Shown here: positions 2,522 through 21,454 of the stretch, in pieces
How the letters are laid out: each line of letters opens with the position of its first letter
Numbering within the stretch: position 1 is the first letter of the stretch
Assembly (NCBI GenBank): GCA_018335035.1
Contig: JAGXKT010000010.1
Location: forward strand, 28-64,027
Direction of reading: 5' to 3'
DNA: 64,000 bases
From: Phycisphaerae bacterium
GTDB lineage: Bacteria > Planctomycetota > Phycisphaerae > SM23-33
Notes under the pieces: generated by a model
What the model was told of the DNA's origin: nothing
The model's database searches: none
What the model saw: the letters and a program-made list of their open reading frames with translations, nothing else
Made by a program: the position numbers and the translations under genes

Positions 2522-4411
2522 CTACTCGCGGCCCGTGGCGGATTCGTTGATCGCGCTGTACAGGCCGACGTTCAGCGTGTTGGGGGCGACGCGGAATTCC
2601 TTCACCTGATCGCCGCGGATTTCGATCGCGTGAAGCGCCCGCGCCTTGCCCGGCGCCCATGCGAAGTGGAAGTAGCTGGCTGTCAAGGACGCGTCCTTGG
2701 TGATGAAGTACGGCACCCCCGTGGACAGATCCACCCCCTCCAGCGGCGGCTTGCCGCGCCATTGATAAGACTCCGGCCCGCGGTGGTCGCGGAAGAAGCC
2801 GCCGAACACCTCCGTCCGCCCGCCGTCGGTGGTTACGACGTGGACGGCGGGGTCCTCCGTCTTGAACCCCATCAGGCAAACGTGCGCCCCGCGGTTGCGG
2901 ATGTACGTGCGCGGCAGTTTGCCGGGGCTGAACGGGTTGTTCTCCATGTCGCATTGACGGACGACAACGTGAGCCGGCGCCGTAAAGGTCGAATCGCCAA
3001 TCCCCTCGTCGATGAAGATCTTCCGCGCCTCCGGCGTGTTGCCATAGACGATCCAGCCGCAGGCGTTGAAGTAGACCGTTCGCGGCGTGGCGACCTGTGC
3101 GGCCAGCACGCGACGCGGCAGCCCCAGCCATTCGACGGCGATCGGGTGCTCGCCGTCGCCCTCGAAACGCAACACGGGCTTGCCCTGACCGGCGAAGCGC
3201 CGGCGACTGACGCGAATGGCCGCACCGAGCCCGACGATGCGCCGCACCGCCCCGCGAACGCGAATCGTATCGCTGACGCGGTAGTTCCCGCCCGGCGTGA
3301 ACAGCAGCGTCTGCGCGCCGGAGTCTATCGCGGCCTGGATCGCCTCCGTGTCGTCCCCGGCCGAGTCGTCGACAACCTTCCACCGCGACTTGGGCTCGAC
3401 GAACACCGTGGGCGGGCTGTCGACCAGGTCCAGGCCGCGAACGGGCGTGTCGTCGTAGACCGTGTGCGTGCGGCCGAGGATTGTCTCGGCGATCGCGTCG
3501 CCGGCAACGACCTCGTCGCCTTCGCGCAAGGCCGCGGCGTAGCCGGCGGTCTTGACGCGGCGTAGAACGGCCGCGCCCCGAACATGCTCAATGGCGCAAT
3601 GCGCGCCGTCGCCGCCGGTCAGCGTCGCGTCCACGAGGGCAAGGTTCGCCTTCGCGCCGTCGTTTCGGATCGCGGGCACCTTGTTGATACTGACGAAATT
3701 CTGAATGGTCACCGGGAAGCGGTTCAGCATGCCCAGCGTGTTCTGGTTCTTGAGCGTGATGTCCACCAGCGTGCCGTGCGAAACCTGGTCGAGGGTCTTG
3801 ATGCCGACGTCGAAGCCCTCAACGGTCACGCGGCGGAGCATGCCGGGCCCGAACTCCGTGGACGACATGTCCACGCCCACGACCCCGCTGCCGTCGCCGG
3901 AGCGGACGACCACGTCGCCGAGGATGCCCTGATTGTGCGTGGTGTACATCACGCCGATCGCGCCGGGGTTGCCCGTGCCGGTATCGACGGTCAGATGGAG
4001 GATGTAGTTCGCGAACGCCGCGTTCGCACGGCTGTCGTTGCCATAGGTGCCCTCGGCATGAGCCGTCCACAACACGGGCTTGGGCGTGTCGGGATCGCCG
4101 AACCCGCCGCAACGGTCCTTCAGCTTGATCGTCGTCTTACCGGCACCGGCGCCGATGAGCTTCTTGCGTTGCGCCCAGCCGATCGTGCCGCTGACCAGAT
4201 ACGTCCCCTCCGGCACGTAGATCACCCGGGCGCCGGAGACGGCTTTCTTGAACGCGGCCGTGTCGTCCGTCACACCGTCGCCGACGGCACCCGCGCGGCG
4301 AACGTTCCGCCAACCGCCGACGGGGAAGTCCTCGTCGCGAATCGGCGTCGCGGCGTGGGCGTGAGTGGCCCCGACCGCCGCGACACACAGCAACCGTCCG
4401 ATCTTGTTCAT
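2522..4411 (-). CDS. Secreted glycoside hydrolase family 55-like (pectate-lyase-superfamily double beta-helix; putative exo-beta-1,3-glucanase)
   Basis: Signal peptide MNKIGRLLCVAAVGATHAHAATP. Two beta-helix domain starts: GAVGDGVTDDTAAFKKAV and DDSAGDDTEAIQAAIDSGAQTLLFTPG. Paralogous to 4470..8030 and 12349..14262. Confidence 0.8.
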   Translation of the reverse strand: MNKIGRLLCVAAVGATHAHAATPIRDEDFPVGGWRNVRRAGAVGDGVTDDTAAFKKAVSGARVIYVPEGTYLVSGTIGWAQRKKLIGAGAGKTTIKLKDRCGGFGDPDTPKPVLWTAHAEGTYGNDSRANAAFANYILHLTVDTGTGNPGAIGVMYTTHNQGILGDVVVRSGDGSGVVGVDMSSTEFGPGMLRRVTVEGFDVGIKTLDQVSHGTLVDITLKNQNTLGMLNRFPVTIQNFVSINKVPAIRNDGAKANLALVDATLTGGDGAHCAIEHVRGAAVLRRVKTAGYAAALREGDEVVAGDAIAETILGRTHTVYDDTPVRGLDLVDSPPTVFVEPKSRWKVVDDSAGDDTEAIQAAIDSGAQTLLFTPGGNYRVSDTIRVRGAVRRIVGLGAAIRVSRRRFAGQGKPVLRFEGDGEHPIAVEWLGLPRRVLAAQVATPRTVYFNACGWIVYGNTPEARKIFIDEGIGDSTFTAPAHVVVRQCDMENNPFSPGKLPRTYIRNRGAHVCLMGFKTEDPAVHVVTTDGGRTEVFGGFFRDHRGPESYQWRGKPPLEGVDLSTGVPYFITKDASLTASYFHFAWAPGKARALHAIEIRGDQVKEFRVAPNTLNVGLYSAINESATGRE

Positions 4412-4469
4412 CGCGCCACGCCTTTCGCCGGTCGTGGGCCACCTGTCGCGCGCACCGGGGATGCGGCGC

Positions 4470-7400
4470 CTACTTGGTCAACATCGCCGCGCCCCAGGTC
4501 ACCGGCTTCTTGAAGCCCTGGTCCTTGCTCTTGTCGGACAGGAACTGCGCCGCCGACTTTCCGTCGTCGATGATGACGACGTTGAAGCTGACTTTCGTGT
4601 CGGGCGTCATCTTCGCCGGGCGCAGCAGCCGCGCCGGAATTATGAACTCGATGGCGTAGCCGTTGGACGTCTTGGCCCACGCCGCCTTGATGAGGTTCTG
4701 CCACGGGCGGTCGTATCCCCAGACCTCCAACGCCGCATCGCCCGGCTTGCCACTGGCCGCCGGACCGACGGTCAGTTGCATCGTCTTGCCGTCCTTCTCG
4801 GCGCGGGCGAAATCCTTCTCGATGAACACCTCGACGCAGTCGGCCTTGTACAGGTCGTAGTCTGCGCCGGCGATGGAATCATCCACAACCAAGGCCGAGC
4901 CGTACAGCCCCTGGTCGGACCATGCGAACCGCACGCCGCTGGCCTGGACGCCTTCGAAGGGCATCGGCAGAGATGCCACACCCTTCCAGTCGTCCAGGTC
5001 GCCGTCGATGGCGATCTCGCGGGGGGCCTTGGGCAGTTCAAGCGGGCTGTCCACCGTGCCTGCCCCGCCGACGGCGCCGGCGCCGACAGGCGGACTGGCG
5101 GGATGGCCTTCTTCGCCCAGCACGAAGATCTGCCGAACCGCCTCGGGGCCCGGCAGCGCGTGGCCGTCCTTGAAGCACCGCGCGCGAAGCTTGCAGCTCT
5201 TCTTGACCGTGATCGGCGCGGTGTACAACGTCGCGTCCTTGTCGGGCGCGGAGCCATCCAGCGTGTAGCGGATGTTCGCGTCCTTGCTGCCGCCGCCTTT
5301 GACCTGAACGGCCAGCGCGACGTTGACAGCACCGTCCTCTGCCTTGGCGTCCTGGGTGCTGTCGACCCCAACGGACCATCGCGCCCCGTGGCTCAAGGCC
5401 GAGTCCGGAATGGGCTCTTCGTCGGCGCCGGGGACTTTCCACATGACCTTCAGCCCCTGCCCGCCGCGGCTCTCAAAGAAGCCCACGCGGATGGGATGCT
5501 TGCCGGCCTCGAGGTTGATCTTGCCGGACGCGGTGAGCATGCCGTGCGGCAGGTCGTTGTCCACGACCAGCTCGTCGCCGATGTACAGCACGCTTCCATC
5601 GTCCGAGGCGGTGTAGAACGTATACATGCCCTCGCGCGGCACCTCCACGTAGCCCTCGAACCACAGGGCGAAGTTATCGTCGGCCGAAGCCATCTCCAGC
5701 CCGAAGTTCTTGACGACGCCTTTGCTCTTGGGGTCATGCTCGTCGGGATCGGGCACGGCGCCCCACCCGCCCTCGTAATACGTGTAGCGCACGCCCGGCG
5801 TGGTGGCCGGCGGGTGCGCCGCCTTCCGCGGACGGACGAACCGATACGTCTGCCGCCCGACGCCGCCGCCCTGATCGCCCCAGAAGCAGCGTGCGGTGAC
5901 CGTTGTGGTCTCGTCCAGCGTGAACGGGCCGGTGTAGCGCTTGGAATCGAGCGTCGGCTTGCTGCCGTCCAGCGTGTAGCGAACGGCGACGTCTTCGCTC
6001 GTGACGCCGGCGGGCAGTTCCAGCGAGACGGTGACGTTCTCGCCGTGCGGCCAGGTGGCGCCTTTCGGCTGCACTGCCGGCCAGCGGCGGCGCATGCGGT
6101 CGTCCGGCGTGGCGGCCTCGTTGATCGCGCTGTAGAGCCCGAGGTTGAGGTTGTTCGGCGGGACGCGGAATTCCTCCACCTGGTCGCCGCGAATCTCGAT
6201 GCCTTGCAGCGCCCGGGCCTTCCCGCCGGCCCAGGCATACTGGAAATACGTGGCCGTCAGGGACGCGTCCTTCGTGATCCAGTACGGCACGCCGGCGGAC
6301 ATATCCACGCCAGGCAGCGGCGGCGCGCCGTGCCATTCGTAATCCGTCGGACCGAAGTGATCGCGGAAGAACCCGCCGAGCACCTCGGTCTTTCCGCCGT
6401 CGGTGGTCACGGCGTGGACGGCCGGCGCTTCGGTCTTGAACCCGAGCACGCAGACGTCGGCGCCGCGATTGCGGATGTAGGTACACGGCAGTTTGCCGTC
6501 ACCGAAGGGGTTGTTCTCCATGTTGCACTGGCGGATGACGACCTTCGCCGGGGCGACGAACATCGAATGGCCCATGCCCTCGTCGATGAAGATCTTCCGC
6601 GCCTCGGGTGTGTTGCGATAGCCCATGTAGCGGGTCGACTGGAAGTACACGGTTCGCGGCGTGGCGATCTCGGCGCCGATCGCGCCGTCGGCGGCGTTGA
6701 TCCACTCGACGGAGATCGGATGCTTCCCGTCGCCCTCGAACCGCATGACCGGCTTGTCGGCCTCGACGAACTCCCGCCCGGGCCCGCGAATGGTCGTGCC
6801 GAACCCGAAGCCGATCAGCCGCCGCACCTTGCCGCGAACGCGGATCGTGTCGGTCACGTCGTAATCGCCGCCCGGAATGAAGAACAACGTCTTGGCGCCC
6901 GAGTCGATCGCGGCCTGGATGGTCTCCGTGTCGTCTTCGGCCGAGTCGTCCACGACCTTCCACTGCGATCGCGGCTCCTCGAACACCGGCGGCGGGCTCT
7001 CGGCCAGACGCAGCGCCCGGATGGGCGTGCCGTCATAGACGCTGTGCTCCGGGCCGAGCACTCTCTCGTCAATCGACGCGCCGTCGATGACCTTGCCCTC
7101 GAGCTTCAGCGCGGCCTTGTAGCCGGCGGTTTTGACGTCGCTGAGCAGGCCCGACCCCTTGACCTGCTCGATGGCGCAGTGATCGGGCGACCCGCCGGTA
7201 AGCTTCGCGCCGACCATCGCCAGGTTGGCGATGCCGCCGTCGTTGCGGACGGCGGGCACCTTGTTGACGCTGACGAGGTTATGGATGGTCACCGGGAAGC
7301 GGTTGAGGATGCCCAGCTTGTTCTGATTCTTGAGCGTGATGTCCACGAGCGTTCCGTGCGAGACGTTGCCCGTGGTCTTGATGCCGATGTCGAAGCCCTC

Positions 7401-8030
7401 GATCGTCACGCGGCGGAGCATGCCGGGCCCGAACTCCGTGGACGACAGGTCGATCCCGATCGGGCCGCTGCCATCGCCCGAGCGAACGACCACATCGCCG
7501 ACGTAGCCGTAGTTGTGCGTCGTGTATTCGATGCCGACGGCGCCCGCGTTGCCCTTGCCCGTGTCCACGGTCAGATCAAGGATGTAGTTGCCGAACGCCG
7601 CGTTGGCGCGGCTATCCCGCCCGTAGTGGGCTTTCTTGTGCCCCGCCCAAAGCACCGGCTTGGACTTGCCACTGAACCGGTCGCAGTTGTCCTTGAGCTT
7701 GATGACGGTCTTGTCGGCCCCGTCGCCGACGAACCACGTCCGCCGCCCCCAGCCGATCGTGTCGCTGACCACGTACGTACCGGCCGGCACATAGATGACC
7801 ATGTACTCGAAGGGGTCCGTCTTGCGGGCCGAGAGGGCCTTGCGGAACGCCGCCGTGTCGTCCGTCACCCCGTCGCCCTTGGCGCCCTGGTTCTTGACGC
7901 TGCGCCATTCGCAGTACTTCTGGCTCTTGGGGAAATCCTCGGGGCGAACCGGCGTCGCCGCGCGGACCTGTGAACCAACCACGGCCGCCAGACACACGGC
8001 CAATCCCATCAGCTTCGTCATGCGTTGCAT
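4470..8030 (-). CDS. Multidomain secreted GH55-like hydrolase: GH55 core + PA14 + 2x chitobiase/hexosaminidase C-terminal-like (CHB_HEX_C) + CBM9-like
   Basis: Start set at ATG 8030 (MQRMTKLMGLAVCLAAVVGSQVRA), with AAAGGA 8 nt upstream; the track's 8054 is a GTG. GAKGDGVTDDTAAF and DDSAEDDTETIQAAIDSGAKTLFF motifs. PA14: GLEMASADDNFALWFEGYVEVPREGMYTFYTASDDGSVLYIGD. CHB_HEX_C-like: VRYTLDGSKPTLDSKRYTGPFTL...ARCF and IRYTLDGSAPDKDATLYTAPITV...ARCF. C-terminal CBM9-like: IDGDLDDWKGV...GYAIEFIIPARLL. Confidence 0.8.
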   Translation of the reverse strand: MQRMTKLMGLAVCLAAVVGSQVRAATPVRPEDFPKSQKYCEWRSVKNQGAKGDGVTDDTAAFRKALSARKTDPFEYMVIYVPAGTYVVSDTIGWGRRTWFVGDGADKTVIKLKDNCDRFSGKSKPVLWAGHKKAHYGRDSRANAAFGNYILDLTVDTGKGNAGAVGIEYTTHNYGYVGDVVVRSGDGSGPIGIDLSSTEFGPGMLRRVTIEGFDIGIKTTGNVSHGTLVDITLKNQNKLGILNRFPVTIHNLVSVNKVPAVRNDGGIANLAMVGAKLTGGSPDHCAIEQVKGSGLLSDVKTAGYKAALKLEGKVIDGASIDERVLGPEHSVYDGTPIRALRLAESPPPVFEEPRSQWKVVDDSAEDDTETIQAAIDSGAKTLFFIPGGDYDVTDTIRVRGKVRRLIGFGFGTTIRGPGREFVEADKPVMRFEGDGKHPISVEWINAADGAIGAEIATPRTVYFQSTRYMGYRNTPEARKIFIDEGMGHSMFVAPAKVVIRQCNMENNPFGDGKLPCTYIRNRGADVCVLGFKTEAPAVHAVTTDGGKTEVLGGFFRDHFGPTDYEWHGAPPLPGVDMSAGVPYWITKDASLTATYFQYAWAGGKARALQGIEIRGDQVEEFRVPPNNLNLGLYSAINEAATPDDRMRRRWPAVQPKGATWPHGENVTVSLELPAGVTSEDVAVRYTLDGSKPTLDSKRYTGPFTLDETTTVTARCFWGDQGGGVGRQTYRFVRPRKAAHPPATTPGVRYTYYEGGWGAVPDPDEHDPKSKGVVKNFGLEMASADDNFALWFEGYVEVPREGMYTFYTASDDGSVLYIGDELVVDNDLPHGMLTASGKINLEAGKHPIRVGFFESRGGQGLKVMWKVPGADEEPIPDSALSHGARWSVGVDSTQDAKAEDGAVNVALAVQVKGGGSKDANIRYTLDGSAPDKDATLYTAPITVKKSCKLRARCFKDGHALPGPEAVRQIFVLGEEGHPASPPVGAGAVGGAGTVDSPLELPKAPREIAIDGDLDDWKGVASLPMPFEGVQASGVRFAWSDQGLYGSALVVDDSIAGADYDLYKADCVEVFIEKDFARAEKDGKTMQLTVGPAASGKPGDAALEVWGYDRPWQNLIKAAWAKTSNGYAIEFIIPARLLRPAKMTPDTKVSFNVVIIDDGKSAAQFLSDKSKDQGFKKPVTWGAAMLTK

Positions 8031-9758: not shown

Positions 9759-11015
9759 TTACGTCAAGCCGCTGGTATTGTGAAACTGCAGTTCGCGAAT
9801 CTCGCCCTCGCCGTCGGCGTCGACGATCTCCAGCCAGGCCTTGCACGCCTTGACCAGGGGGAACCGGCAGATGGCCTTGTGCCCGATGCTCTTGCCCTCG
9901 TAGAGCGTGGTGTCGCGCCCTTCCGGCGCGGGAGTGATGCGGATCGCGAACCGACGGACGTGCTCGCCGCGGGTGATGTCCTCCTGAATGACCGCATGGT
10001 CCATCAGGAACGGTTCAGCCGGTTCGTACACGAGACGATTGCCCGCCTGACGGCAGTCCGCCCTCGTGCACAGCGGCGAGCCGAAACGCCGCCGCAGCGC
10101 CTCGCCGAATTCGGTCAGCCGGGCAGCGTCCTCCTCGTGGACGCGTCCCCGCAGGTCCGGGCCGACGTTCAGCAGCAGGTTGCAGCCCCGCCCCACGGAG
10201 TAGTCGTACAGCCCCATCAGTTCCTCGACGCTTTTGAGCGGGTCGTCCGTGCCGCGCCACGTCCAGCCCTCGTAGCGGAGACGGCAGTCGCACTCGGCCG
10301 GCAGCCAGGTCGGGGCGGGCATGGTGTCCACCTCGTCGGATTCGATGGAAAACGGCACCTGCTCGACGGTATTCCAGTTGGGAATGGAGGCGATGCCGGC
10401 CTCGTTGCCGACCCAGCGGAAATCGGGATCGCCCATGTTGAAGATCCGAATCTCCGGCTGCATCGCGCGGATCTCCTGGATCAGCATGGGCCAGTTGTAC
10501 GCGTGCCCCTCGCTGAACGCGCCGTCGAACCAGAGAATGTCGATCGGGCCGTACGCGCCGCCGAGAAGCTCCCGCATGTGACTGAGGAAGTACTCATCGT
10601 AGGCCGGCGGGTCGGCCTGGTACGACGGCTCGTGCGCGTCGAACGGCGAGTAGTACAGCCCGACCGCCAGGTGCTGCCCGCGGCAGGCGTCGACGAACTC
10701 GCCGACGACGTCGCCCGCCCCGTCGCGCCACGAGCAGGCCGCCGTGGAGAAATTCGGTGTCGTCGCCGACGGCCAATGGCAGAAGCCGTCGTGATGCTTG
10801 GCCGTGTAGACCATGTACCGCGCCCCGGCCTGGGAGGCCAACTGCGCCCACTGCTGGCAATCCAGCTCGCTCGGGTCAAAGGCCTCGGTCTGGACCGAGT
10901 CCTTCTCGGCCTTGAAGTCCGTCTGGTGCGTGTACTGCCCGGCCAGAAAGTGAATGAACAGCCCGAATTCCCAATCCTGGAAGTCAAGCTGCCGCTGCGT
11001 CGGTTTGGCGGTCAT
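9759..11015 (-). CDS. Alpha-L-fucosidase (GH29), no signal peptide
   Basis: GH29 N-terminal blocks WEFGLFIHF, WAQLASQAGARYMVYTAKHHDGFCHWPS and ILWFDG. Confidence 0.8.
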   Translation of the reverse strand: MTAKPTQRQLDFQDWEFGLFIHFLAGQYTHQTDFKAEKDSVQTEAFDPSELDCQQWAQLASQAGARYMVYTAKHHDGFCHWPSATTPNFSTAACSWRDGAGDVVGEFVDACRGQHLAVGLYYSPFDAHEPSYQADPPAYDEYFLSHMRELLGGAYGPIDILWFDGAFSEGHAYNWPMLIQEIRAMQPEIRIFNMGDPDFRWVGNEAGIASIPNWNTVEQVPFSIESDEVDTMPAPTWLPAECDCRLRYEGWTWRGTDDPLKSVEELMGLYDYSVGRGCNLLLNVGPDLRGRVHEEDAARLTEFGEALRRRFGSPLCTRADCRQAGNRLVYEPAEPFLMDHAVIQEDITRGEHVRRFAIRITPAPEGRDTTLYEGKSIGHKAICRFPLVKACKAWLEIVDADGEGEIRELQFHNTSGLT

Positions 11016-14288: not shown

Positions 14289-15893
14289 TCACTTGTCGGC
14301 GGACGCCGGGCGGTACCACTTGTCCGAGACGATCGCCTTGCGAAGCGCGTCGGGCCATTGGACGATCAACGCGTCCCGCTCCCCCCGGCACCGCTCGCCG
14401 AAGGTCACGTTGTCCCAGCGTTCGGCGATCGACGGGTTCTCCAACAGCAGCCCACCGACGGCGAGGTCGTCGAAGCGGACGTTTCGCAACATCAACTCGC
14501 CGCAGATGCCCAGCGTGATCTCCTCAGGCATCTGCTTGTAGCCGTCCAGGCGCCCTTCAAACCACGCATTATGCCGTCGGTGCCAGCAGATGACCAGCTT
14601 CGCTTCGTCCGGATCGGCCGTGTGGACCACCACCTCCGCCGACGGGGTGAAGATCGCGCCCGGCACACGCCGCTTGACATCGCGGAAACCGGCCGGCGCC
14701 TTGAAGCTGATGCCGAAGCAAACGTCCTCCGTAATTGGATGGGCCTCGGTGCCCGCCTCAATCCGCCCGGCGATGATGATGTCCATCGAGCCCTGGCTGT
14801 ACTTGAAGCCGTAGCCGCTGCCGGGTGCCGTGTGGGCCTTGCCGTACTCGGCGCCGGACATCAGCCGCAGCGTCGTGCCACGGGAAATGTGCTGCACCGA
14901 ACGGGTCCCCGCCCAGAGCTGGCTGCCCTCGGCGACGATCGCCGTGCCGGCCTTCATCTGGAAATCGTCGCTGCTGACGACGGTCCCCGAGAACTCGACC
15001 GACGCGTCGCCTTCCTTGCGTACGTTCAGGTACTGCGACATTCCGTATGGCTTGCCGACCGGGATGATGAACCCGCCGCGAACGGGCTTCGCGCCGGGGG
15101 ATTCCGGCGTCAGCCGCGGCTGATCGTTCAGGAAGAACGTGTGCTTCGCGCCGCACATGACCGTGGTGTAACGGCAACGATAGATCCCGTCGCGCGCCAC
15201 CCACAGGTTGCCCACCATCTGCGGAACCGTCGACGGGTTGAATTTGGCGTTATGCTCGACGGTGACGTGGCGAAACTTGATGATGCCGGCCGGACGCAGT
15301 TTGTACTTGGACTGGTATGATTTCGCCGCGACCGGTACGAGAATGTCCGTATCCGGGCCCAGCCAGGAGACCTTCAGGTCTCTGCGGTCGATGGTCTCGA
15401 CGGGGGGCCAGAGCTCCTCGCCGGTGCCGCCGACAACAATCCAGTTGTCCGGGTCGTGCAGCACGCCGGTGGTACCGGGATTCTTCCAGACGAGCAGCCG
15501 GTGGGGTGCGTCCCACGTCTCGCCGGTGTAGGCGGGCTTGCGCCCGGTCGCCGGCGGCGCGTCCGGCCAGTCGGTCCGTCCGATCAGACGCTTCTCCTCG
15601 TCCGTCAGCGCGCGCTTGGCATTGAGTTGCTCGCGCTTGCCTTGGACCGTCACCGCGTGGACATGCTGCTTCATGAACGACCGCAGCGTCGCCAGGCGCG
15701 GTGAATAGACGACCAGGTAGTCGTCCATCTCGCATTCGACGGCCAACTTGCCTTCGATCCGCGTTCCGTCAACAAGCTCGATCGTACACGCCGCCAGCTT
15801 GACCGTCGGCGCCCCTTCAGCCGTGACGCAGCCCGTCACGATCATGAGACAAGCGGCGATTTCAACGGCGACAGACCACTTTATTCGCATCAT
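14289..15893 (-). CDS. Hypothetical lipoprotein, 534 aa, no recognisable domain
   Basis: Start ATG 15893 (MMRIKWSVAVEIAACLMIVTGC) with GAGGAG ~8 nt upstream. The lipobox V-T-G-C fits. The track start 15965 adds an R/C-rich leader. A 26-bp gap separates it from the GH55 gene downstream. Confidence 0.55.
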   Translation of the reverse strand: MMRIKWSVAVEIAACLMIVTGCVTAEGAPTVKLAACTIELVDGTRIEGKLAVECEMDDYLVVYSPRLATLRSFMKQHVHAVTVQGKREQLNAKRALTDEEKRLIGRTDWPDAPPATGRKPAYTGETWDAPHRLLVWKNPGTTGVLHDPDNWIVVGGTGEELWPPVETIDRRDLKVSWLGPDTDILVPVAAKSYQSKYKLRPAGIIKFRHVTVEHNAKFNPSTVPQMVGNLWVARDGIYRCRYTTVMCGAKHTFFLNDQPRLTPESPGAKPVRGGFIIPVGKPYGMSQYLNVRKEGDASVEFSGTVVSSDDFQMKAGTAIVAEGSQLWAGTRSVQHISRGTTLRLMSGAEYGKAHTAPGSGYGFKYSQGSMDIIIAGRIEAGTEAHPITEDVCFGISFKAPAGFRDVKRRVPGAIFTPSAEVVVHTADPDEAKLVICWHRRHNAWFEGRLDGYKQMPEEITLGICGELMLRNVRFDDLAVGGLLLENPSIAERWDNVTFGERCRGERDALIVQWPDALRKAIVSDKWYRPASADK

Positions 15894-15978: not shown

Positions 15979-18465
15979 TCACGTGCCGCTGCATGCAGGC
16001 GCGGGTGCGGCGCGCCCGGAATCAGCGCCGACGGGACACGCCGTGAAGCATCGCTCGACCGCGGGCGTGTAACCCGGGCGCTGGATGCGGTCGCTGTTCC
16101 GCACCGCCTCCACGATGTACTCCGGCGTGATCCGCTCGGGCACGGCGACGTCGTTGCGCGCGTGGCTGTACATGCCGCCGGATTCGGGGATCAGCTTGTA
16201 GCGTTTGGAAAAATCGCACCGCAGCAAATCCAGCCGGCCCCAGCGGAAGGTCCGACCCTCGACGGCGACCGACAATGTCTCGTCGCCGGCGATGGCAGCC
16301 ATCGGGCACGCCTGCACGCAGGCCTTGCACTCGGTGCACAGCGCCGGGCCGGCGTAGACGTCGTCGGTGTCCAATTCGGCATCGGTCACCAGGCAGACGA
16401 ACCGCTGCCGCGGGCCGAACTGTGGCGTCAGCACGATGCCATTCCAGCCGATCTCCCCGAGCCCGGCCGCAACGGCCGCGAACCGCGACGCCAGAAGATC
16501 CTGCCCCGCCCCGCCGATGCGCCCGGCCAGGCCGCACAGGTCGCGCGTCGGCGCGGCCGCGTGCCCCGCCGCTTCCAACAGGCGCGACAGCGTCAACTGG
16601 ATCGTCTCGAGCTGGCTCCAGGCCTCCTCGTGAACGACGGTGTGGTAATGCCCCGCCTTGTGCGCCAGCGGCTGGCCGACCTGGTCGATGCTCGCGTCCG
16701 GAAGCGCCACACCCAGAACGATGACCGACCGCGCGCCGTCGAGGTGGTCAGCCGGGCGCGTGGGCTGAAGCCGCTCCGGGCGGGCCTGCGGATTGAATGG
16801 CCAGCCCTGCCCGCCCCACAGGCACGGCCGGTCGATCGACCAGCCCTGATCCTCGACGACGAAGTAGTCTTCCGACTCGCGCGCGAACAGTTCCGCAAGC
16901 TGCGGGACGACCGCGTCCATCCGCGCCGCCGGCATGATGCCGACAAGGTCCGCGCCGGCGTCGGCGGCGACGCGCCGCACGCGTTGCGTCAGGTCGCTCG
17001 GCGTGGCCTCAACGCGCTCGAACTGCGGCGCGAGCTCGCACACCTGTCGCTCCAACGGTGCCGAGGTCAGGATCACGCGCCAGCGCTGCCGCCGGCCAAA
17101 GCGATCGGAGACCACCTTGCCGTACTCGGTGTCCATGCGCAGCGAGTAGTTGACGGTCGCCTTCTTTCCACCGTGCGCCTCGTGGGCGACCTCCTCGGAC
17201 GGACGCGCCAGACCCGCAACGACGGCCGCCTGCTCCTCGTCCAGCCCACTGCGAGGCAGCACCGAGAAGCCGTACCGCTCCTGCATGAGGTAGCCGATCA
17301 TGATCTCAGCGCGGGCGGCGTGGTAATCGACGTTCAACTCGCACCCATCGGGATAGCCCAGACCGATCACCACCGCCCCGGCCGCGTCGGGCATGATCTG
17401 CTTCAGGTCCACGCCCGCCCCGGCGTAGTCCTCGGCCGAGACTGTCGCCAGCATGTCCACGCCAAGCGTCTCAGCGAGGTTCCGGACATCTCCCGTCATC
17501 GCCTCCAGTGTCTCCGGCGACGCGTCGGGCTCGACATCCCGCCGGCGGCGCGGCGCCTTGCAGTAATCGCGGTCAAAGTAGCGCCGCGGCTTGGACATGC
17601 AGTGCTTGAGGCACATGCCCATCTTCCAGCCGGTGATCCACTCGTTGCGCTCCTTGACGGCGCGTTCCTCCATCTCGGTCATGAGCGCCTCGTCGACGTG
17701 CTTGCCCCGCCATTCGTCGAGTAACACGTCGAGCATGAAGTTCTCGCCGGTCGCGCAGCGCCACAGGTTCCGGTCGGGAAACTCGTATCGCCTGCCTTCG
17801 ATCTCGATGTGCCGCATCTCGCCGCTGACGTCCTCGTCGAAGCATCGCGTGGGGCAGTTCTTCGCGCACAGCTTGCAGCGGTCGCACAGCGCGGGCCCGT
17901 CGTACATCGGCGTCGGCGTCAGCTCCGCGTCCGTCACGATGCTCACGAACCGCTGCCGCGGGCCGAACTCCGGCGTCAGGCAGATGTTCTGCCAGCCGAC
18001 CTCGCCGAGCCCCGCGCAGACGGCCGCGTAGTAATGGCACATGTCGCCGACCCAGCCGCGATCGTGACTGCCGTCCGACAGCGGCGCCGCGCGATAGCGC
18101 CACTGACCGCTCTGGCGGACGAACAGCGCCTGATGCCCGAGCCGCTCCAGCCGCCGCATGACCTTCCACGCGATGTCGTGGAGCATCGCCGAGACGTTCA
18201 TCTGCGTCATCGCCGGCCCGGGATAGCGCGGGTCCTGCTCGGCGCCGAGTTCGGCCGGGGCGTCCAGAAAGTGACACGCGCAGACGATCACGTTCTTCGC
18301 CGCCGGGAAGATGCCCTGCGGGCTGTGTTCGATGGGGGCCTTGTCCCAGCGCGATACGGGCGCGACGCCGACAAGATTGGCCCCGAGCTGCCTGGCGTAG
18401 CGCGTGATGTCCTCGGTCAGGGCCTGAACATCTGCGCGCGCGTCACTTTGCATCGATTCAGTCAT
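15979..18465 (-). CDS. Tandem-duplicated epoxyqueuosine reductase (QueG)/reductive-dehalogenase-superfamily-like Fe-S protein, 828 aa
   Basis: Two copies of the QueG core. Copy 1: AAVCAGLGEVGWQNICLTPEFGPRQRFVSIVTDAEL...GPALCDRCKLCAKNCPT. Copy 2: AAVAAGLGEIGWNGIVLTPQFGPRQRFVCLVTDAEL...GPALCTECKACVQACP. Both have C-x2-C-x2-C-x3-CP. AGGAAG 8 nt upstream of ATG 18465. Confidence 0.65.
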   Translation of the reverse strand: MTESMQSDARADVQALTEDITRYARQLGANLVGVAPVSRWDKAPIEHSPQGIFPAAKNVIVCACHFLDAPAELGAEQDPRYPGPAMTQMNVSAMLHDIAWKVMRRLERLGHQALFVRQSGQWRYRAAPLSDGSHDRGWVGDMCHYYAAVCAGLGEVGWQNICLTPEFGPRQRFVSIVTDAELTPTPMYDGPALCDRCKLCAKNCPTRCFDEDVSGEMRHIEIEGRRYEFPDRNLWRCATGENFMLDVLLDEWRGKHVDEALMTEMEERAVKERNEWITGWKMGMCLKHCMSKPRRYFDRDYCKAPRRRRDVEPDASPETLEAMTGDVRNLAETLGVDMLATVSAEDYAGAGVDLKQIMPDAAGAVVIGLGYPDGCELNVDYHAARAEIMIGYLMQERYGFSVLPRSGLDEEQAAVVAGLARPSEEVAHEAHGGKKATVNYSLRMDTEYGKVVSDRFGRRQRWRVILTSAPLERQVCELAPQFERVEATPSDLTQRVRRVAADAGADLVGIMPAARMDAVVPQLAELFARESEDYFVVEDQGWSIDRPCLWGGQGWPFNPQARPERLQPTRPADHLDGARSVIVLGVALPDASIDQVGQPLAHKAGHYHTVVHEEAWSQLETIQLTLSRLLEAAGHAAAPTRDLCGLAGRIGGAGQDLLASRFAAVAAGLGEIGWNGIVLTPQFGPRQRFVCLVTDAELDTDDVYAGPALCTECKACVQACPMAAIAGDETLSVAVEGRTFRWGRLDLLRCDFSKRYKLIPESGGMYSHARNDVAVPERITPEYIVEAVRNSDRIQRPGYTPAVERCFTACPVGADSGRAAPAPACSGT

Positions 18466-18484
18466 GGTAGACTTCCTGCGGCGT

Positions 18485-19261
18485 CTAGTCCGCCGCGATG
18501 GCTGTCTTGTTCTGGAAGGATTGTGTCAAGGCCTCGCTAAGCTGCTGCGCCGCCGCACGCCCGGCGGCGACGATCTGCCGGCGGCGACCATCATCGAAGC
18601 GCTGCAGCGGCACGCCCACGCCGAGCGCCGCCAGCGGCGTGCCCCCCTCAAAGACCGGAAACGCCACCTGCGCCACCTCCTCGCGATCCGTCAGCACGCA
18701 CATCCCCTCATCGCGAATGCGCTCCAGCGCGCCGGTGAGCGTATCGACCGTTTCGGCGCCGGGCCAACAGGCCTCCGTCGGCACGCCGCGTTCGGCCACG
18801 AAGGCCTCCACCTCCCGCGGCGCCGCGTGCGCCAGCAGCACGCGGCCGGTGGCCGTCTCGTAGACATCGTTGCGATACGGAATATCGTCGCGGACCTGCA
18901 CCGCCCGCTCCGGATGCACCACGCAGAGAATGGAGCGGCGGGCGCCCTTCAGCGTCGCGACGAGCACCATCTCCGCCAGCTCGGCGGACAGTTCCGCCAC
19001 AACGGGCTGGGCGGCGGCCACGATGTCGCGGCGATACGGTCCGTGGCGCGCGAGGAAGTACACCGTCGCCCCGAGCAGATAGCCCTTCTTGGGCGCGACC
19101 TGCTCGACGAGCCCACGGTCGATCAGGGTCTTGAGGATGTTGGCGCACGTCGAAGCGTTCTGCCCCAACGCCGTAGCGATCTCACCCAGCCCGACCGGGT
19201 CGCCCGGATGGGCGGCCAGCAGTTCCAACACGTCGCATGCCTTGTGAAGGACGCGTATCAT
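18485..19261 (-). CDS. IclR-family transcriptional regulator
   Basis: MIRVLHKACDVLELLAAHPGDPVGLGEIATALGQNASTCANILKTLIDRGLV is an IclR HTH, followed by an effector domain. Start trimmed from the 934-aa track ORF, the remainder of which is antisense to GH31. Confidence 0.75.
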   Translation of the reverse strand: MIRVLHKACDVLELLAAHPGDPVGLGEIATALGQNASTCANILKTLIDRGLVEQVAPKKGYLLGATVYFLARHGPYRRDIVAAAQPVVAELSAELAEMVLVATLKGARRSILCVVHPERAVQVRDDIPYRNDVYETATGRVLLAHAAPREVEAFVAERGVPTEACWPGAETVDTLTGALERIRDEGMCVLTDREEVAQVAFPVFEGGTPLAALGVGVPLQRFDDGRRRQIVAAGRAAAQQLSEALTQSFQNKTAIAAD

Positions 19262-19291: not shown

Positions 19292-19483
19292 ATGAATTAT
19301 AGGCCATGCGAACGACCCGGTCAAGCCCGTTGCCCTCCGCAGATCGGCCGGCGTGACGACGGCGTCCCGTCGCGCCAGCGGGCTTGCCATTGATCCGAAG
19401 CGGCCTTGGCGGTACCGTGCCTCGCCGGCAGCGTCTGGCCGATTCGGGCCGAGCGCACGAGCGACGATGGAAAGGACCCCTTC

Positions 19484-21454
19484 ATGGAGCGGCTGACACA
19501 AGACGGCAACCGCCTGCTTTGGCGTCGCCAAGGCAACACCGTGTGTATCGAACCGTGGGGGCCGGACGTGCTGCGCGTCCGCGCGACGGTCAATCCCGAC
19601 CTGCGCGACGACCGCTACGCCCTGCTGGACGCCGCCGACACGACGCCGGAGATCGCGATCACCGACCAGGAAGGCATCATCCGCAACGGACGGATCGCCG
19701 CGCGCCTCGGCGCCGAACGCGGCGTCCTGCGGTTCGTTCGCAGCGACGACGGCGAGGAGCTGCTCGGCGAGATGTGGCGCGACCCCTTCCGCCCCCACCG
19801 GCAATGGCGCTGCGTCGGCGGCGACAGCTACCGTGCCGAGGTCTGCTTTGCCGGACACGCGGACGAACGCCTCTACGGGCTCGGGCAGAACACCAACGGC
19901 CGGCTCGACCAGAAGGGCTGCGTCGTCGACCTCTGCCAGCGCAACACGGAAGTCAGCATTCCGCTGCTGATCTCCGACCGGATGTACGGGCTGCTGTGGC
20001 ATTGCCCGTCGCAGGGGCGGGTGGAGCTGTCGCCGGACCGCACGCGCTGGATCGCTGAGCAGACACATCAGATCGACTACTGCGTGATCGGCGGGCGCAG
20101 CTATGCGGACATCCTGGCCCGCTACGCGGACCTGACCGGTCACGCGCCGATGCTGCCCGACTGGGCGACCGGGTTCTGGCAGTGCAAACTGCGCTACACG
20201 TCGCAGGAGGAACTGCTGAACGTCGCGCGGGAGCACGTCAAGACGCGCGGGCTGCCGATGTCCGTCATCGTCAGTGACTTCTACCACTGGACCAAGCAGG
20301 GCGAGTGGACGTTCGATCCGGTCCACTGGCCCGACCCGGACGCCATGGTCCGCGAGCTGGACGAGATGGGCGTCCGCCTGATGGTCTCCGTCTGGCCGAC
20401 AGTCAACCGCAACGCCGAAACCTATGAGGAAATGCGCGACCGTGGGTTGCTGTTGGGAACCCATGCCGGCGTGCCGCCGCAGAAGGAGATGCTCGACGAC
20501 GGCGCCGCCGGTCAGGCCTACGTGCAGTTTTACGACCCGTCGAACCCGGCCGCACGCGACTACATCTGGCAGCGTGTCCGCGACGGCTACTACCGCCACG
20601 GCATCAAGATCTACTGGCTGGACGCCGACGAGCCGCCCATCGCCGAAGGGCACTTCGACAACCTGCGCTACCACGCCGGTCACGGAACGGCCGTGTCCAA
20701 TCTTTACGCCTTGTGGCACCAGCAGGCGTTCTACGACGGGCTCAAGTCGGAGGGCGAAACCGAGATCATCACCCTCTCGCGCAGCGCCTGGGCAGGCAGC
20801 CAGCGCTACGGCGCCGCGCTGTGGTCCGGCGATATCGTCAGTTCCTGGCGCGACCTGCGCGAGCAGGTCCACGCTGGGCTCAACGTCGCCCTCAGCGGCA
20901 TCCCCTGGTGGACCACGGACATCGGCGGCTTCTTCCACGGCGACCCGGACGCCGAGTGGTTCCGCGAGTTGGTCGTCCGCTGGTTCCAGTACGGAACGTT
21001 CTGCCCGCTGTTCCGGCTGCACGGTGATCGCGTCTCGCACGAGCCGGACAAATGCGGCGACAACGAGGTCTGGTCCTACGGCGATCGCGCGTACGAGATC
21101 ATGAAGGGCCTTCTGCTGCTGCGCGAGCGGCTCCGCCCGTACATCATGGATCAGATGCGCCTGGCGAGCGAGACCGGCACGCCGCCGATGCGCCCGGTGT
21201 TCTTCGACTTCCCCGACGATGCCGGCGCCTACGAGGCGCAGTATGAATTCCTGTTCGGCCCGGACCTGCTGGTCGCGCCGGTCGTGCATGAAGGCGCCGA
21301 CGCGCGCGAGGTGTACCTGCCGGCCGGGGCAACCTGGACCGACGCTTGGACGGACGAGGCGCTGCCGGGCGGGCAGACCGTCCAGGCCGAGGCGCCGCTG
21401 GAGCGGATCCCGCTGTACCTGCGTGACGGCGCCGCGTTGCCGATCCGGGCCTGA
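19484..21454 (+). CDS. Glycoside hydrolase family 31 (alpha-glucosidase/alpha-xylosidase-like), cytoplasmic
   Basis: Start at MERLTQDG, with GAAAGGA 12 nt upstream. KIYWLDADEP and GGFFHGDPDAEWFRELVVRWFQYGTFCPLFRLHGD are GH31 blocks. Confidence 0.85.
   Translation: MERLTQDGNRLLWRRQGNTVCIEPWGPDVLRVRATVNPDLRDDRYALLDAADTTPEIAITDQEGIIRNGRIAARLGAERGVLRFVRSDDGEELLGEMWRDPFRPHRQWRCVGGDSYRAEVCFAGHADERLYGLGQNTNGRLDQKGCVVDLCQRNTEVSIPLLISDRMYGLLWHCPSQGRVELSPDRTRWIAEQTHQIDYCVIGGRSYADILARYADLTGHAPMLPDWATGFWQCKLRYTSQEELLNVAREHVKTRGLPMSVIVSDFYHWTKQGEWTFDPVHWPDPDAMVRELDEMGVRLMVSVWPTVNRNAETYEEMRDRGLLLGTHAGVPPQKEMLDDGAAGQAYVQFYDPSNPAARDYIWQRVRDGYYRHGIKIYWLDADEPPIAEGHFDNLRYHAGHGTAVSNLYALWHQQAFYDGLKSEGETEIITLSRSAWAGSQRYGAALWSGDIVSSWRDLREQVHAGLNVALSGIPWWTTDIGGFFHGDPDAEWFRELVVRWFQYGTFCPLFRLHGDRVSHEPDKCGDNEVWSYGDRAYEIMKGLLLLRERLRPYIMDQMRLASETGTPPMRPVFFDFPDDAGAYEAQYEFLFGPDLLVAPVVHEGADAREVYLPAGATWTDAWTDEALPGGQTVQAEAPLERIPLYLRDGAALPIRA

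What the first reader, a model, noticed from the sequence alone, without database searches (positions are those of the whole stretch)
2522..21454. 17-kb single-strand glycan-degradation locus pairing secreted GH55 enzymes with leaderless sulfatase, GH29 fucosidase and GH31
Three GH55-like genes carry signal peptides. The sulfatase, GH29 and GH31 start directly with catalytic-domain sequence, and the sulfatase has only 43 bp of upstream spacer. This implies extracellular exo-glucanase action followed by import and intracellular desulfation and defucosylation. The enzyme set (beta-1,3-glucan, fucose, sulfate ester, alpha-glucoside or xyloside) fits brown-algal laminarin plus sulfated fucan. It is controlled by a divergently placed IclR regulator.
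Basis: inference. Interest (0 to 1): 0.5.

Follow-up and report, generated by a model that had tools for sequence, protein, structure and literature searches.

The report
Phycisphaerae mixed glycan-degradation gene island
This is a real 19-kb cluster of carbohydrate-degrading genes in an uncultured planctomycete, but it lies on two strands in several transcription units, and its enzyme subtypes do not point to brown-algal laminarin or fucoidan.

Summary
The genes are real. Ten genes at 2522-21454 match GenBank proteins MBS3734380-89 of a Phycisphaerae MAG, with the same start codons.

**Confirmed:**
- Three paralogous twin-beta-helix proteins carry signal peptides.
- The S1 sulfatase, GH29 and GH31 are leaderless.
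- A 43-bp spacer separates GH29 from the sulfatase.

**Wrong or missed:**
- The locus is not on a single strand. GH31 is on the + strand, divergent from IclR, and IclR heads the nine minus-strand genes.

**Subtypes do not support laminarin plus fucoidan:**
- GH31 is a MeXyl31-like GH31_4 alpha-xylosidase.
- GH29 is subfamily-B-like.
- The sulfatase is closest to cytoplasmic arylsulfatase/phosphonate-monoester-hydrolase types.
- The "GH55" proteins share the GH55 fold (TM 0.69) at only 12-17% identity, and no GH55 catalytic motif is recognisable.
- There is no endo-fucanase and no transporter.

Only IclR, the Fe-S protein, the lipoprotein and GH55-like-3 are syntenic in relatives. The rest is lineage-specific.

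**Verdict:** an ordinary composite CAZyme island. The conserved IclR/Fe-S pair is a modestly interesting side lead.

The parts
2522..4411 (-). GH55-like-1: secreted twin-beta-helix protein, 629 aa (MBS3734380.1)
   Evidence: PF12708 at 99.9 bits. AlphaFold pLDDT 92, and the best fold matches are GH55 structures 3EQN and 5M5Z at TMq 0.69 and 16-17% identity. Signal peptide MNKIGRLLCVAAVGATHAHA. GC3 0.88.
4470..8030 (-). GH55-like-2: secreted, multimodular, 1186 aa (MBS3734381.1). Twin beta-helix followed by 2x CHB_HEX_C_1/Fn3_assoc, PA14 and CBM9.
   Evidence: Pfam hits. It is 66% identical to GH55-like-1. It has a signal peptide. An 83%-identical ortholog sits in L001 among paralogs of the beta-helix lipoprotein.
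8219..9715 (-). Leaderless S1 (formylglycine-type) sulfatase, 498 aa (MBS3734382.1)
   Evidence: PF00884 at 151 bits, aligned from residue 2, plus SGSH_C. The motif C49-G-P-S-R53 is visible in the translation. Best PDB hits are 4UPI, 4UPL, 5G2V and 2W8S. There is no hydrophobic N-terminus. The L007 ortholog is 86% identical and also 498 aa.
9759..11015 (-). Leaderless GH29 alpha-L-fucosidase, subfamily-B-like, 418 aa (MBS3734383.1)
   Evidence: PF01120 at 141.6 bits. Best PDB hits are 5K9H, 4ZRX, 3EYP and 3UES. The stop codon lies 43 bp upstream of the sulfatase ATG.
11177..11950 (-). Prepilin-type N-methylation / H-X9-DG pseudopilin-like protein (MBS3734384.1; PGAP starts it at 11914, giving 245 aa)
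   Evidence: PF07963, TIGR02532 and TIGR04294. The sequence carries the FTLIELLVV motif.
12349..14262 (-). GH55-like-3: secreted twin-beta-helix protein, 637 aa (MBS3734385.1). It is the last gene of the conserved four-gene unit.
   Evidence: PF12708 at 103.8 bits. Orthologs 82-83% identical hold the same position in L005 and L007.
14289..15893 (-). Lipoprotein of an uncharacterised right-handed beta-helix family, 534 aa (MBS3734386.1, hypothetical protein KGY99_05610)
15979..18465 (-). Cytoplasmic tandem RdhA/QueG-like Fe-S protein, 828 aa (MBS3734387.1)
   Evidence: TIGR02486 RDH at 90 bits and QueG at 59 bits, both below their cut-offs. PDB hits are PceA and QueG, over the GLGE.G...TPEFGPR core and the CxxCxxCxxxCP motif. 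The two halves are 35% identical, E 2e-28. There is no Tat or Sec leader.
18485..19261 (-). IclR-family regulator, 258 aa (MBS3734388.1), first gene of the minus-strand array
   Evidence: HTH_IclR plus IclR_C. Weak similarity to BhcR, KdgR and PcaR. It lies 19 bp upstream of the Fe-S gene.
19296..19324 (-). Sigma-70-like promoter TTGACC-17-TATAAT upstream of IclR, inside the 222-bp divergent intergenic region
   Evidence: 11 of 12 consensus matches. The TTGAC and ATA.T positions are invariant in the IclR-upstream regions of L005, L007 and L011.
19484..21454 (+). Leaderless GH31 alpha-xylosidase, 656 aa (MBS3734389.1), divergent from IclR
   Evidence: PF01055 at 281.8 bits, plus PF21365 and PF13802. 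MeXyl31 (5ZN6) matches at E 1.6e-191 over residues 34-678 of the 682-aa ORF. An SD-like GGAAAGGA precedes ATG 19484.

Best explanation
This is a composite carbohydrate-utilisation island in an anaerobic-type Phycisphaerae (Planctomycetota) genome. It consists of at least four transcription units, not one operon.

**(1) A conserved unit headed by IclR:** IclR, then the tandem RdhA/QueG-like Fe-S protein, then the beta-helix lipoprotein, then the GH55-like twin-beta-helix protein. The two exported beta-helix proteins probably bind and cut an unidentified polysaccharide at the cell surface. The cytoplasmic Fe-S enzyme and the regulator form an older pair onto which these genes were added.

**(2) A lone pseudopilin-like HX9DG gene.**

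**(3) A GH29-sulfatase pair**, followed by two more exported GH55-like paralogs.

**(4) A divergent GH31 alpha-xylosidase.**

The three leaderless enzymes most likely trim fucose, sulfate and alpha-xylose from small imported oligosaccharides in the cytoplasm. The polymer is not identified. The enzyme subtypes fit a fucose-, xylose- and sulfate-decorated heteroglycan or exopolymer better than laminarin plus fucoidan.

**Shown:** gene identities, strands, start codons, folds, leader presence or absence, and synteny of unit 1.
**Inferred:** operon boundaries, import, substrates, and IclR control.
For: - **Gene calls.** Gene calls and start codons agree with the GenBank records.
- **Domains and folds.**
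- **Export.** The four beta-helix proteins and the pseudopilin have leaders. The sulfatase, GH29, GH31, Fe-S protein and IclR do not.
- **Synteny of unit 1.** The same order IclR, Fe-S, lipoprotein, GH55-like-3 is found in L005/L006 and L007/L009, at 66-84% identity.
- **The IclR-Fe-S pair stands alone elsewhere.** It occurs without the glycanases in L011, L012, L013/L014, L020 and L021. L020 shares the Kdo-kinase and GT9 neighbourhood of the window.
- **The two beta-helix families recur together.** The lipoprotein family and the GH55-like family are again adjacent in L001, under an ECF sigma/FecR pair.
- **GH29 and GH31 are not syntenic.** Neither is found in the regions read from relatives. 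The sulfatase recurs only in L007, on the opposite strand.
- **Promoters and gaps.** A conserved promoter lies upstream of IclR. Promoter-like sites at 12128-12101 and 11103-11074 fall in the 398- and 161-bp gaps. In all, 7 sites were found against 1.8 +/- 1.4 in shuffles.
- **Flanks.** The flanking genes are housekeeping genes.
Against: - No expression data exist, so the operon boundaries rest on gap lengths and consensus scans. Terminator-like sites are no more frequent than in shuffles (11 found, 10.7 expected).
- No transporter is encoded nearby, so cytoplasmic trimming of imported oligosaccharides is unproven.
- No FGE or anSME is present among the window ORFs I scanned, so activation of the sulfatase is unverified.
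- Synteny of unit 1 at 66-84% identity could reflect recent common ancestry and not selection.
- The catalytic competence of the GH55-like and lipoprotein families is inferred only from fold, invariant acidic residues and fused binding modules.
Confidence: 0.6

Rival explanations
1. First reader's model. This is a laminarin-plus-fucoidan locus. Secreted GH55 exo-beta-1,3-glucanases attack laminarin. Imported sulfated fuco-oligosaccharides are then desulfated and defucosylated in the cytoplasm, all under IclR control.
For: - The GH55 fold match is full-length and is the best in the PDB.
- NCBI names two of the proteins 'glycoside hydrolase family 55 protein'.
- GH29 and the sulfatase are adjacent, 43 bp apart.
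Against: - Identity to GH55 structures is only 12-17%, and HMM similarity is limited to the N-cap motif.
- The invariant C-domain motif RQxNxE...KTE...TExLGG matches no GH55 sequence in the PDB.
- No glutamate is followed by the adjusting tyrosine (ExxY), and no EH pair exists as described for GH55 (PMC10637969).
- GH31 is an alpha-xylosidase.
- GH29 is B-type, and it is a single copy.
- There is no GH95, GH141, GH107, GH168 or GH187. The sulfatase resembles PMH and arylsulfatase types (PMC11685898).
- The closest GH55-like homologues sit in unrelated contexts.
Confidence: 0.1
2. Adjacent but not functionally linked. The ten genes are independent CAZyme and sulfatase genes that merely accumulated at one permissive chromosomal site in a CAZyme-dense planctomycete genome. 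They share no substrate.
For: - Only four of the ten genes are syntenic in relatives.
- Orthologs of GH55-like-1 and -2 lie elsewhere.
- A remnant of a UDP-GlcNAc 2-epimerase gene abuts the island's end, which suggests rearrangement there.
- Roughly half of Planctomycetota genomes carry at least one exo-fucosidase (PMC11685898).
Against: - Spacing is tight: 19, 26, 43, 58 and 85 bp.
- The lipoprotein family and the GH55-like family recur together in an independent locus (L001).
- The accessory modules (CHB_HEX_C_1, Fn3_assoc, PA14) are shared between the two families.
Confidence: 0.2
3. Reductive glycan pathway. The conserved IclR/tandem RdhA-QueG-like unit is functionally tied to the beta-helix glycanases. 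The Fe-S enzyme, probably corrinoid-dependent, reduces a sugar-derived product in the cytoplasm.
For: - The two halves each carry the RdhA/QueG core and two 4Fe-4S motifs.
- Family members lie next to glycoside hydrolases or PF12708 beta-helix genes in distant lineages: GH32 in Armatimonadia (L014); GH4 and GH35 in Verrucomicrobiota (L015); a GH129-like gene with overlapping stop and start in L022; two PF12708 genes in Victivallaceae (L023); and a SASA esterase in L021.
Against: - In L020 the pair sits among housekeeping genes. In L017 the homologue lies in a TctABC, OYE, SDR and FAD cluster with no glycosidase.
- These phyla are CAZyme-rich, so chance adjacency is likely.
- No cobalamin riboswitch or any other Rfam hit exists in the window.
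- I found no literature on such a role.
Confidence: 0.1

Closest known systems
GH55 beta-1,3-glucanases (PcLam55A 3EQN, CtLam55 5M5Z, MnLam55A 8JHH, SacteLam55A 4PEW)
   Same: Two tandem right-handed beta-helix domains in the 'rib-cage' arrangement (TMq 0.60-0.69 to 3EQN, 5M5Z and 8JHH). The GDGvtDDT...YxPxGtY N-cap motif begins each domain. The proteins are secreted. Invariant polar and acidic residues sit on successive coils of both domains: Q223 and N243 in the N-domain, E490, E519 and E534 in the C-domain.
   Different: Identity is 12-17%. No alignable catalytic region was found. The ExxY acid/tyrosine pair and the EH pair described for GH55 (PMC10637969) are absent. The proteins are shorter, about 610 mature residues against about 750. 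The substrate is unknown.
MeXyl31 (PDB 5ZN6), GH31_4 alpha-xylosidase from a soil metagenome
   Same: Full-length similarity (E 1.6e-191, 641 bits), the same three-domain layout and no leader peptide.
   Different: It comes from a different organism. Activity of the window protein is untested. MeXyl31 itself prefers pNP-alpha-xyloside and does not cleave isoprimeverose or xyloglucan oligosaccharides (PMC10792220), so the natural substrate is unknown for both.
GH29 subfamily-B fucosidases (5K9H, BACOVA 4ZRX, BT2192 3EYP, AfcB 3UES)
   Same: The catalytic domain aligns over nearly the whole protein (E 5e-66 to 2e-50).
   Different: There is no signal peptide and no C-terminal F5/8-type-C or other binding module. 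The solved relatives are 450-700 aa exported or surface enzymes.
Cytoplasmic arylsulfatase / phosphonate-monoester-hydrolase class of S1 sulfatases (4UPI, 4UPL, 2W8S, 2VQR)
   Same: These are the best solved relatives (E 3e-48 to 3e-31). The CxPxR formylglycine motif is present and there is no leader.
   Different: All NCBIfam equivalog scores are far below their cut-offs, for example PehA at 150 against 900. The SulfAtlas subfamily and the substrate are undetermined. GlcNAc-6-sulfatase 5G2V is almost as close (E 8e-36).
Planctomycetal fucoidan PULs (PMC11685898)
   Same: The phylum is the same, and a GH29 and an S1 sulfatase are co-located.
   Different: Those loci hold 13-15 GH29 genes plus GH95 and GH141, endo-fucanases GH107/GH168/GH187 and S1_17/22/25 sulfatases. 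This locus has one GH29, one sulfatase and no endo-fucanase.
Reductive dehalogenase (RdhA/PceA) and epoxyqueuosine reductase (QueG)
   Same: Each half of the 828-aa protein has the corrinoid-domain core motif and the CxxCxxCxxxCP plus a second cluster motif.
   Different: The protein is a tandem duplication. It has no Tat leader, unlike respiratory RdhA, and no QueG HEAT tail was detected. Scores are below both family cut-offs (90 against 160 and 59 against 200). It is paired with IclR.

Membership tests
GH55 | Two beta-helix domains forming the rib-cage fold | tested here: met
   The AlphaFold model has pLDDT 92 and pTM 0.92. The top Foldseek hits are 3EQN and 5M5Z, at E about 1e-16 and TMq 0.69.
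GH55 | Sequence similarity across the catalytic region to characterised GH55 enzymes | tested here: not met
   phmmer and profile hits to 5M5Z, 3EQN and 8JHH cover only the first 100-150 residues of each domain. A profile of the conserved C-domain region finds no GH55 chain even at E<=10.
GH55 | General-acid Glu with an adjusting Tyr (ExxY), and a proton relay (Thr/Glu, Ser, Gln, Glu-His) at the domain interface (PMC10637969) | tested here: inconclusive
   The family invariants are E490, K517, E519 and E534 in the C-domain and N148, N160, Q223 and N243 in the N-domain. They lie on successive coils, as in GH55. However, none of the glutamates is followed by xxY or by His. No residue-level superposition was available.
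GH55 | Beta-1,3-glucanase activity | not testable with these tools
   This needs an enzyme assay.
S1 formylglycine sulfatase | Sulfatase domain above the Pfam threshold, plus the C/S-x-P-x-R motif | tested here: met
   PF00884 scores 151.3 bits against a cut-off of 25. C49-G-P-S-R53 followed by CSFLTG is visible in the translation.
S1 formylglycine sulfatase | SulfAtlas subfamily linked to fucoidan (S1_15/16/17/22/25) | not testable with these tools
   No SulfAtlas models were available. The nearest solved relatives are PMH and arylsulfatase types and GlcNAc-6-sulfatase.
GH29 (subfamily B) | Alpha_L_fucos domain above threshold, and closer to B-type than to A-type structures | tested here: met
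   PF01120 scores 141.6 bits against 25.2. B-type 5K9H, 4ZRX, 3EYP and 3UES give E 5e-66 to 2e-50. A-type 2WVV and 1HL8 give E about 5e-18 to 3e-16.
GH31 alpha-xylosidase (GH31_4, MeXyl31-like) | GH31 TIM barrel with N- and C-terminal domains, and an alpha-xylosidase as the nearest characterised enzyme | tested here: met
   PF01055 scores 281.8 bits, with PF21365 and PF13802 also hit. 5ZN6 matches at E 1.6e-191 over the full length, and the next hits are all alpha-xylosidases. GH31_4 membership of MeXyl31 is taken from PMC10792220.
IclR-family regulator | N-terminal HTH_IclR plus C-terminal IclR effector domain | tested here: met
   PF09339 at 40.9 bits and PF01614 at 66.7 bits. No NCBIfam equivalog cut-off is reached.
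Planctomycetal fucoidan PUL | Endo-fucanase (GH107/GH168/GH187) plus multiple GH29/GH95/GH141 genes | tested here: not met
   All ten genes are accounted for by other families. The only protein without a family is a beta-helix. There is a single GH29.
Bacteroidota-type PUL | A SusC/SusD pair | tested here: not met
   No SusC/SusD or TonB-dependent receptor domain was hit in the ten locus genes or in the other window ORFs scanned. A few small ORFs were not scanned.
RdhA / QueG | Score above the family cut-off; two 4Fe-4S motifs; corrinoid binding; a Tat leader for respiratory RdhA | tested here: inconclusive
   TIGR02486 scores 90.3 against 160 and TIGR00276 scores 58.9 against 200, so neither family is reached. 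The Fe-S motifs are present in both halves. No Tat motif is present. Corrinoid binding cannot be tested here.

The most novel reading that the evidence does not exclude
The conserved operon IclR / tandem RdhA-QueG-like Fe-S protein / beta-helix lipoprotein / GH55-like protein would encode an undescribed anaerobic glycan pathway. Two uncharacterised beta-helix families would depolymerise a polymer outside the cell. A cytoplasmic corrinoid/Fe-S reductase would then carry out a reductive step on a sugar-derived product, such as deoxygenation or removal of a substituent, with IclR sensing that product.
Probability: 0.1. Interest if true: 0.7.

Novelty: new member of a known kind. Interest (0 to 1): 0.3.

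Why it matters
The evidence does not support that.

What remains is a typical planctomycetal CAZyme island, already annotated gene by gene in GenBank, with an outside/inside division of labour. Its value lies in three leads:
- a divergent GH55-fold clade whose specificity cannot be assumed to be beta-1,3-glucan;
- a beta-helix family with no Pfam model, of about 343 clusters at 50% identity, which travels with that clade and shares its binding modules;
- a tandem RdhA/QueG-like Fe-S protein that is paired with IclR across several phyla and often lies beside glycosidase genes.

Each lead is testable with recombinant protein. None is yet a surprise to a specialist.

Tried and rejected
- **Exact-sequence contig look-ups.** Look-ups of the window sulfatase and of P0121 found nothing. 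The source was identified through the listing of cluster members instead.
- **GH55 literature search.** 'GH55' plus 'Phycisphaerae' returned only GH5_5 papers, a tokenisation artefact.
- **GH55 catalytic region.** A profile of the C-domain conserved block found only noise in the PDB. Residue-level mapping onto the GH55 catalytic residues was therefore not possible.
- **Metagenome scan with GH29.** It returned only relatives at 38% identity or less, so it could not test whether the GH29-sulfatase pairing recurs.
- **IclR operator.** No inverted repeat was found in the 222-bp IclR-GH31 intergenic region, so no operator can be proposed.
- **RNA elements.** There are no Rfam families, including no cobalamin riboswitch, and no tRNAs in the window.
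- **Literature on the Fe-S protein.** Searches for a tandem RdhA/QueG-like protein in carbohydrate metabolism found nothing relevant.
- **Hidden leaders.** I considered a frameshift-hidden leader on the sulfatase or GH29 and rejected it. The ORFs are already maximal, the 43-bp spacer leaves no room, and alignments to the solved homologues shown begin at residue 2-5.
- **G8 domain.** Hits in two distant lipoprotein-family members are sub-threshold (E 0.001-0.005). I treat them as a lead only.

Full report
**Source and gene calls**

The window has about 67% G+C. In 2522-21454 ten ORFs have third-position GC of 0.83-0.90. The long antisense ORFs that overlap them show the mirror pattern, with GC1 of 0.84-0.90 and GC3 of about 0.65. 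All ten translations are exact matches to consecutive GenBank proteins MBS3734380.1-MBS3734389.1. These come from a metagenome-assembled Phycisphaerae genome, locus tags KGY99_, on an 85,263-bp contig. The start codons are the ones I chose, except that PGAP starts the pseudopilin-like gene 12 codons later.

The flanks are housekeeping genes:
- a SIS-domain gene and a fragment of a UDP-GlcNAc 2-epimerase on one side;
- SppA (S49 peptidase), IspF and CysS on the other.

The rest of the window holds LPS-core genes, recA, shikimate-pathway genes, a type II/IV secretion-like cluster and a BcrAD/BadFG-type activase. It holds no further CAZymes, no transporter and no sulfatase-maturating enzyme among the ORFs scanned. 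No Rfam family and no tRNA were found.

**Anatomy**

On the minus strand, in transcription order:

| Gene | Coordinates | Gap to next gene |
|---|---|---|
| IclR | 18485-19261 | 19 bp |
| 828-aa tandem RdhA/QueG-like Fe-S protein | 15979-18465 | 85 bp |
| 534-aa lipoprotein with no family hit | 14289-15893 | 26 bp |
| GH55-like-3 | 12349-14262 | 398 bp |
| Prepilin-type HX9DG protein | 11177-11950 | 161 bp |
| GH29 | 9759-11015 | 43 bp |
| S1 sulfatase | 8219-9715 | 188 bp |
| GH55-like-2, with CHB_HEX_C_1, Fn3_assoc, PA14 and CBM9 modules | 4470-8030 | 58 bp |
| GH55-like-1 | 2522-4411 | end of array |

GH31 (19484-21454) is on the plus strand, 222 bp from IclR and divergent from it.

The 'divergently placed IclR' is divergent only with respect to GH31, and it actually leads the minus-strand array.

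**Leaders**

The three GH55-like proteins and the lipoprotein have a basic n-region and a hydrophobic h-region. The lipoprotein also has a VTGC lipobox. The HX9DG protein has the FTLIELL prepilin motif.

The sulfatase, GH29, GH31, Fe-S protein and IclR have no such segment:
- The ORF list already gives the longest possible reading frames.
- The GH29 stop lies 43 bp before the sulfatase ATG.
- The sulfatase aligns from residue 2 to residues 18-35 of exported homologues.
- GH29 aligns from residue 5 to residue 39 of 5K9H.
- GH31 aligns from its seventh residue to residue 8 of the leaderless MeXyl31.
- The 86%-identical sulfatase ortholog in L007 is also 498 aa.

**What the enzymes are**

*GH31.* The best match is MeXyl31 (5ZN6) at E 1.6e-191, and the next hits are other alpha-xylosidases. 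MeXyl31 belongs to GH31_4. It cleaves pNP-alpha-xyloside but not isoprimeverose or xyloglucan oligosaccharides, so its natural substrate is unknown (PMC10792220).

*GH29.* It is closest to 5K9H, 4ZRX, 3EYP, 3UES and 6ORG (E 5e-66 to 2e-48). It is far from the subfamily-A enzymes, which score about 1e-17.

*Sulfatase.* It has the C49-G-P-S-R53 formylglycine motif. Its best solved relatives are the arylsulfatase/phosphonate-monoester-hydrolase group (4UPI, 4UPL, 2W8S, 2VQR), followed by a GlcNAc-6-sulfatase. The best NCBIfam models are PehA, arylsulfatase and choline-sulfatase, all far below their cut-offs.

*GH55-like proteins.* They are paralogs, 66%, 48% and 50% identical to each other.
- A model of GH55-like-1 built on 46 homologues has pLDDT 92.
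- Its best structural matches are the GH55 enzymes 3EQN and 5M5Z (TMq 0.69) and 8JHH (0.60-0.65), at 12-17% identity.
- At the sequence level, a family profile hits GH55 chains at E 3e-33, but only over the GDGvtDDT...YxPxGtY cap at the start of each helix.
- The invariant C-domain block RQxNxE490...K517-T-E519...T-E534-xLGG matches no GH55 chain.
- GH55 catalysis relies on a general-acid Glu oriented by a Tyr three residues later, and on a Thr/Glu-Ser-Gln-Glu relay (PMC10637969). Here invariant Glu, Gln and Asn residues do sit on successive coils of both domains, but none has the ExxY or EH context.

I conclude that the fold is GH55-like and the proteins are probably glycanases. Beta-1,3-glucan specificity cannot be transferred to them.

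*The lipoprotein.* The model has pLDDT 90 and shows a small N-terminal barrel followed by a right-handed beta-helix.
- The word-index search found 42 clusters, and every one that carries a taxon name is from Phycisphaerae. Several are in the same MAG.
- An exhaustive profile search found 343 clusters at 50% identity, most of them about 420 aa.
- Ten sampled members have no Pfam family above threshold. Two give sub-threshold G8-domain hits.
- Many paralogs carry the same CHB_HEX_C_1, Fn3_assoc and PA14 modules as GH55-like-2.
- In L001 four such paralogs surround an 83%-identical ortholog of GH55-like-2, under an ECF sigma/FecR pair.

The two beta-helix families therefore recur together in independent arrangements, which argues that they share a polymer.

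*The 828-aa protein.* It is an internal duplication, with halves 35% identical at E 2e-28. Each half has the RdhA/QueG core (GLGE.GW...TPEFGPRQRF), a CxxCxxCxxxCP motif and a second cysteine group. It reaches neither the RDH nor the QueG cut-off, and it has no Tat leader.

**Conservation**

The order IclR, Fe-S protein, lipoprotein, GH55-like-3 is kept in L005/L006 and L007/L009, at 66-84% protein identity.

The IclR-Fe-S pair alone recurs in a Great-Salt-Lake-type Planctomycetota MAG (L011), in candidate division WS1 (L012, with the Fe-S gene duplicated), in Armatimonadia (L013/L014) and in two further metagenome contigs (L020, L021). In L020 the pair lies near a Kdo kinase and a GT9 gene, as it does in the window, but housekeeping genes follow it. 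This suggests that the glycanase genes were added downstream of an older pair.

A TTGACC-17-TATAAT promoter-like site lies 35 bp upstream of the IclR ATG. Its TTGAC and ATA.T positions are invariant in the corresponding regions of L005, L007 and L011.

Further promoter-like sites fall in the 398-bp and 161-bp gaps. The scan found 7 sites against 1.8 +/- 1.4 in shuffles. Terminator-like sites are not enriched.

GH29 and GH31 are absent from the regions read in relatives. The sulfatase recurs only in L007, on the opposite strand. The closest homologues of GH55-like-1 lie in unrelated contexts.

**Interpretation**

- Fucoidan loci of Planctomycetota contain many GH29/GH95/GH141 genes, endo-fucanases GH107/GH168/GH187 and S1_17/22/25 sulfatases.
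- About half of Planctomycetota genomes have at least one exo-fucosidase (PMC11685898).
- One B-type GH29 next to one PMH-like sulfatase is therefore not diagnostic.

The enzyme set fits trimming of a fucose-, alpha-xylose- and sulfate-bearing heteroglycan or exopolymer. That remains an inference. Import is inferred without any locus-encoded transporter.

**Side lead**

Homologues of the tandem Fe-S protein lie next to the following genes:
- GH32 (L014);
- GH4 and a GH35/42-like gene (L015);
- a GH129-like gene with overlapping stop and start (L022);
- a SASA-type esterase (L021);
- two PF12708 beta-helix genes and a pseudopilin-like gene in Victivallaceae (L023).

In L017, however, the homologue sits in a TctABC, OYE, SDR and FAD cluster, and in L020 it sits among housekeeping genes. 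These phyla are rich in CAZymes, so I treat the link to glycans as suggestive only.

**Verdict**

This is an ordinary, already annotated, composite CAZyme island. Interest is low to moderate. It rests on two uncharacterised beta-helix families and the conserved IclR/tandem RdhA-QueG-like pair.

Noticed in passing
window 15979-19261 (-); L005, L007, L011-L014, L020, L021: An IclR gene directly followed by a roughly 770-830-aa tandem RdhA/QueG-like Fe-S protein is conserved across Planctomycetota, candidate division WS1 and Armatimonadia. The IclR promoter is conserved in the Planctomycetota loci compared (L005, L007, L011). Homologues are often next to glycosidase or PF12708 beta-helix genes (L014, L015, L022, L023). 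The function is unknown.
   Followed up: partly
[not shown]
   Followed up: partly
window 2192-2497 (+): A fragment matching only positions 220-318 of the 347-position UDP-GlcNAc 2-epimerase profile runs head-on into the 3' end of GH55-like-1. It has no stop codon of its own, and its N-terminal part is missing because a SIS gene occupies that space on the other strand. It is probably a gene remnant marking a rearrangement at the island border.
   Followed up: no
window 50184-56363 (-): A type II secretion / type IV pilus-like cluster with one T2SSF gene and three T2SSE ATPase genes, two of them with MshEN domains. It is possibly the machinery that handles the many pseudopilin-like HX9DG proteins.
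   Followed up: no
window 59228-62401 (-): A 1057-aa BcrAD/BadFG ATPase plus DUF2229 'CoA enzyme activase' protein. In my experience such activases are typical of strict anaerobes, which would fit an oxygen-sensitive Fe-S/corrinoid enzyme in the locus.
   Followed up: no
window 35726-37321 (+): A single ORF fuses shikimate kinase (residues 10-172) to chorismate synthase (residues 190-524).
   Followed up: no
window 40134-42638 (+) and 42787-45729 (-): Two large ORFs of 834 and 980 aa have coding-type GC3 but no Pfam family at E<=1e-4.
   Followed up: no
L012 3046-7858; L016; L017 9145-13407: The tandem Fe-S gene is itself duplicated in the WS1 MAG (L012). In Oscillospiraceae (L016) and Spirochaetales (L017) it sits in arrays with single-domain RdhA/QueG-like genes. 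In L017 the array lies beside TctA/TctC transporter genes, an OYE-type flavin reductase, an SDR and an FAD protein.
   Followed up: no
L001 1-3597: Upstream of the GH55-like/lipoprotein paralog array in the related MAG there are three paralogous DUF5060 proteins, one with a weak Apiosidase (PF13204) hit. This hints at a complex branched glycan as the target of that locus.
   Followed up: no
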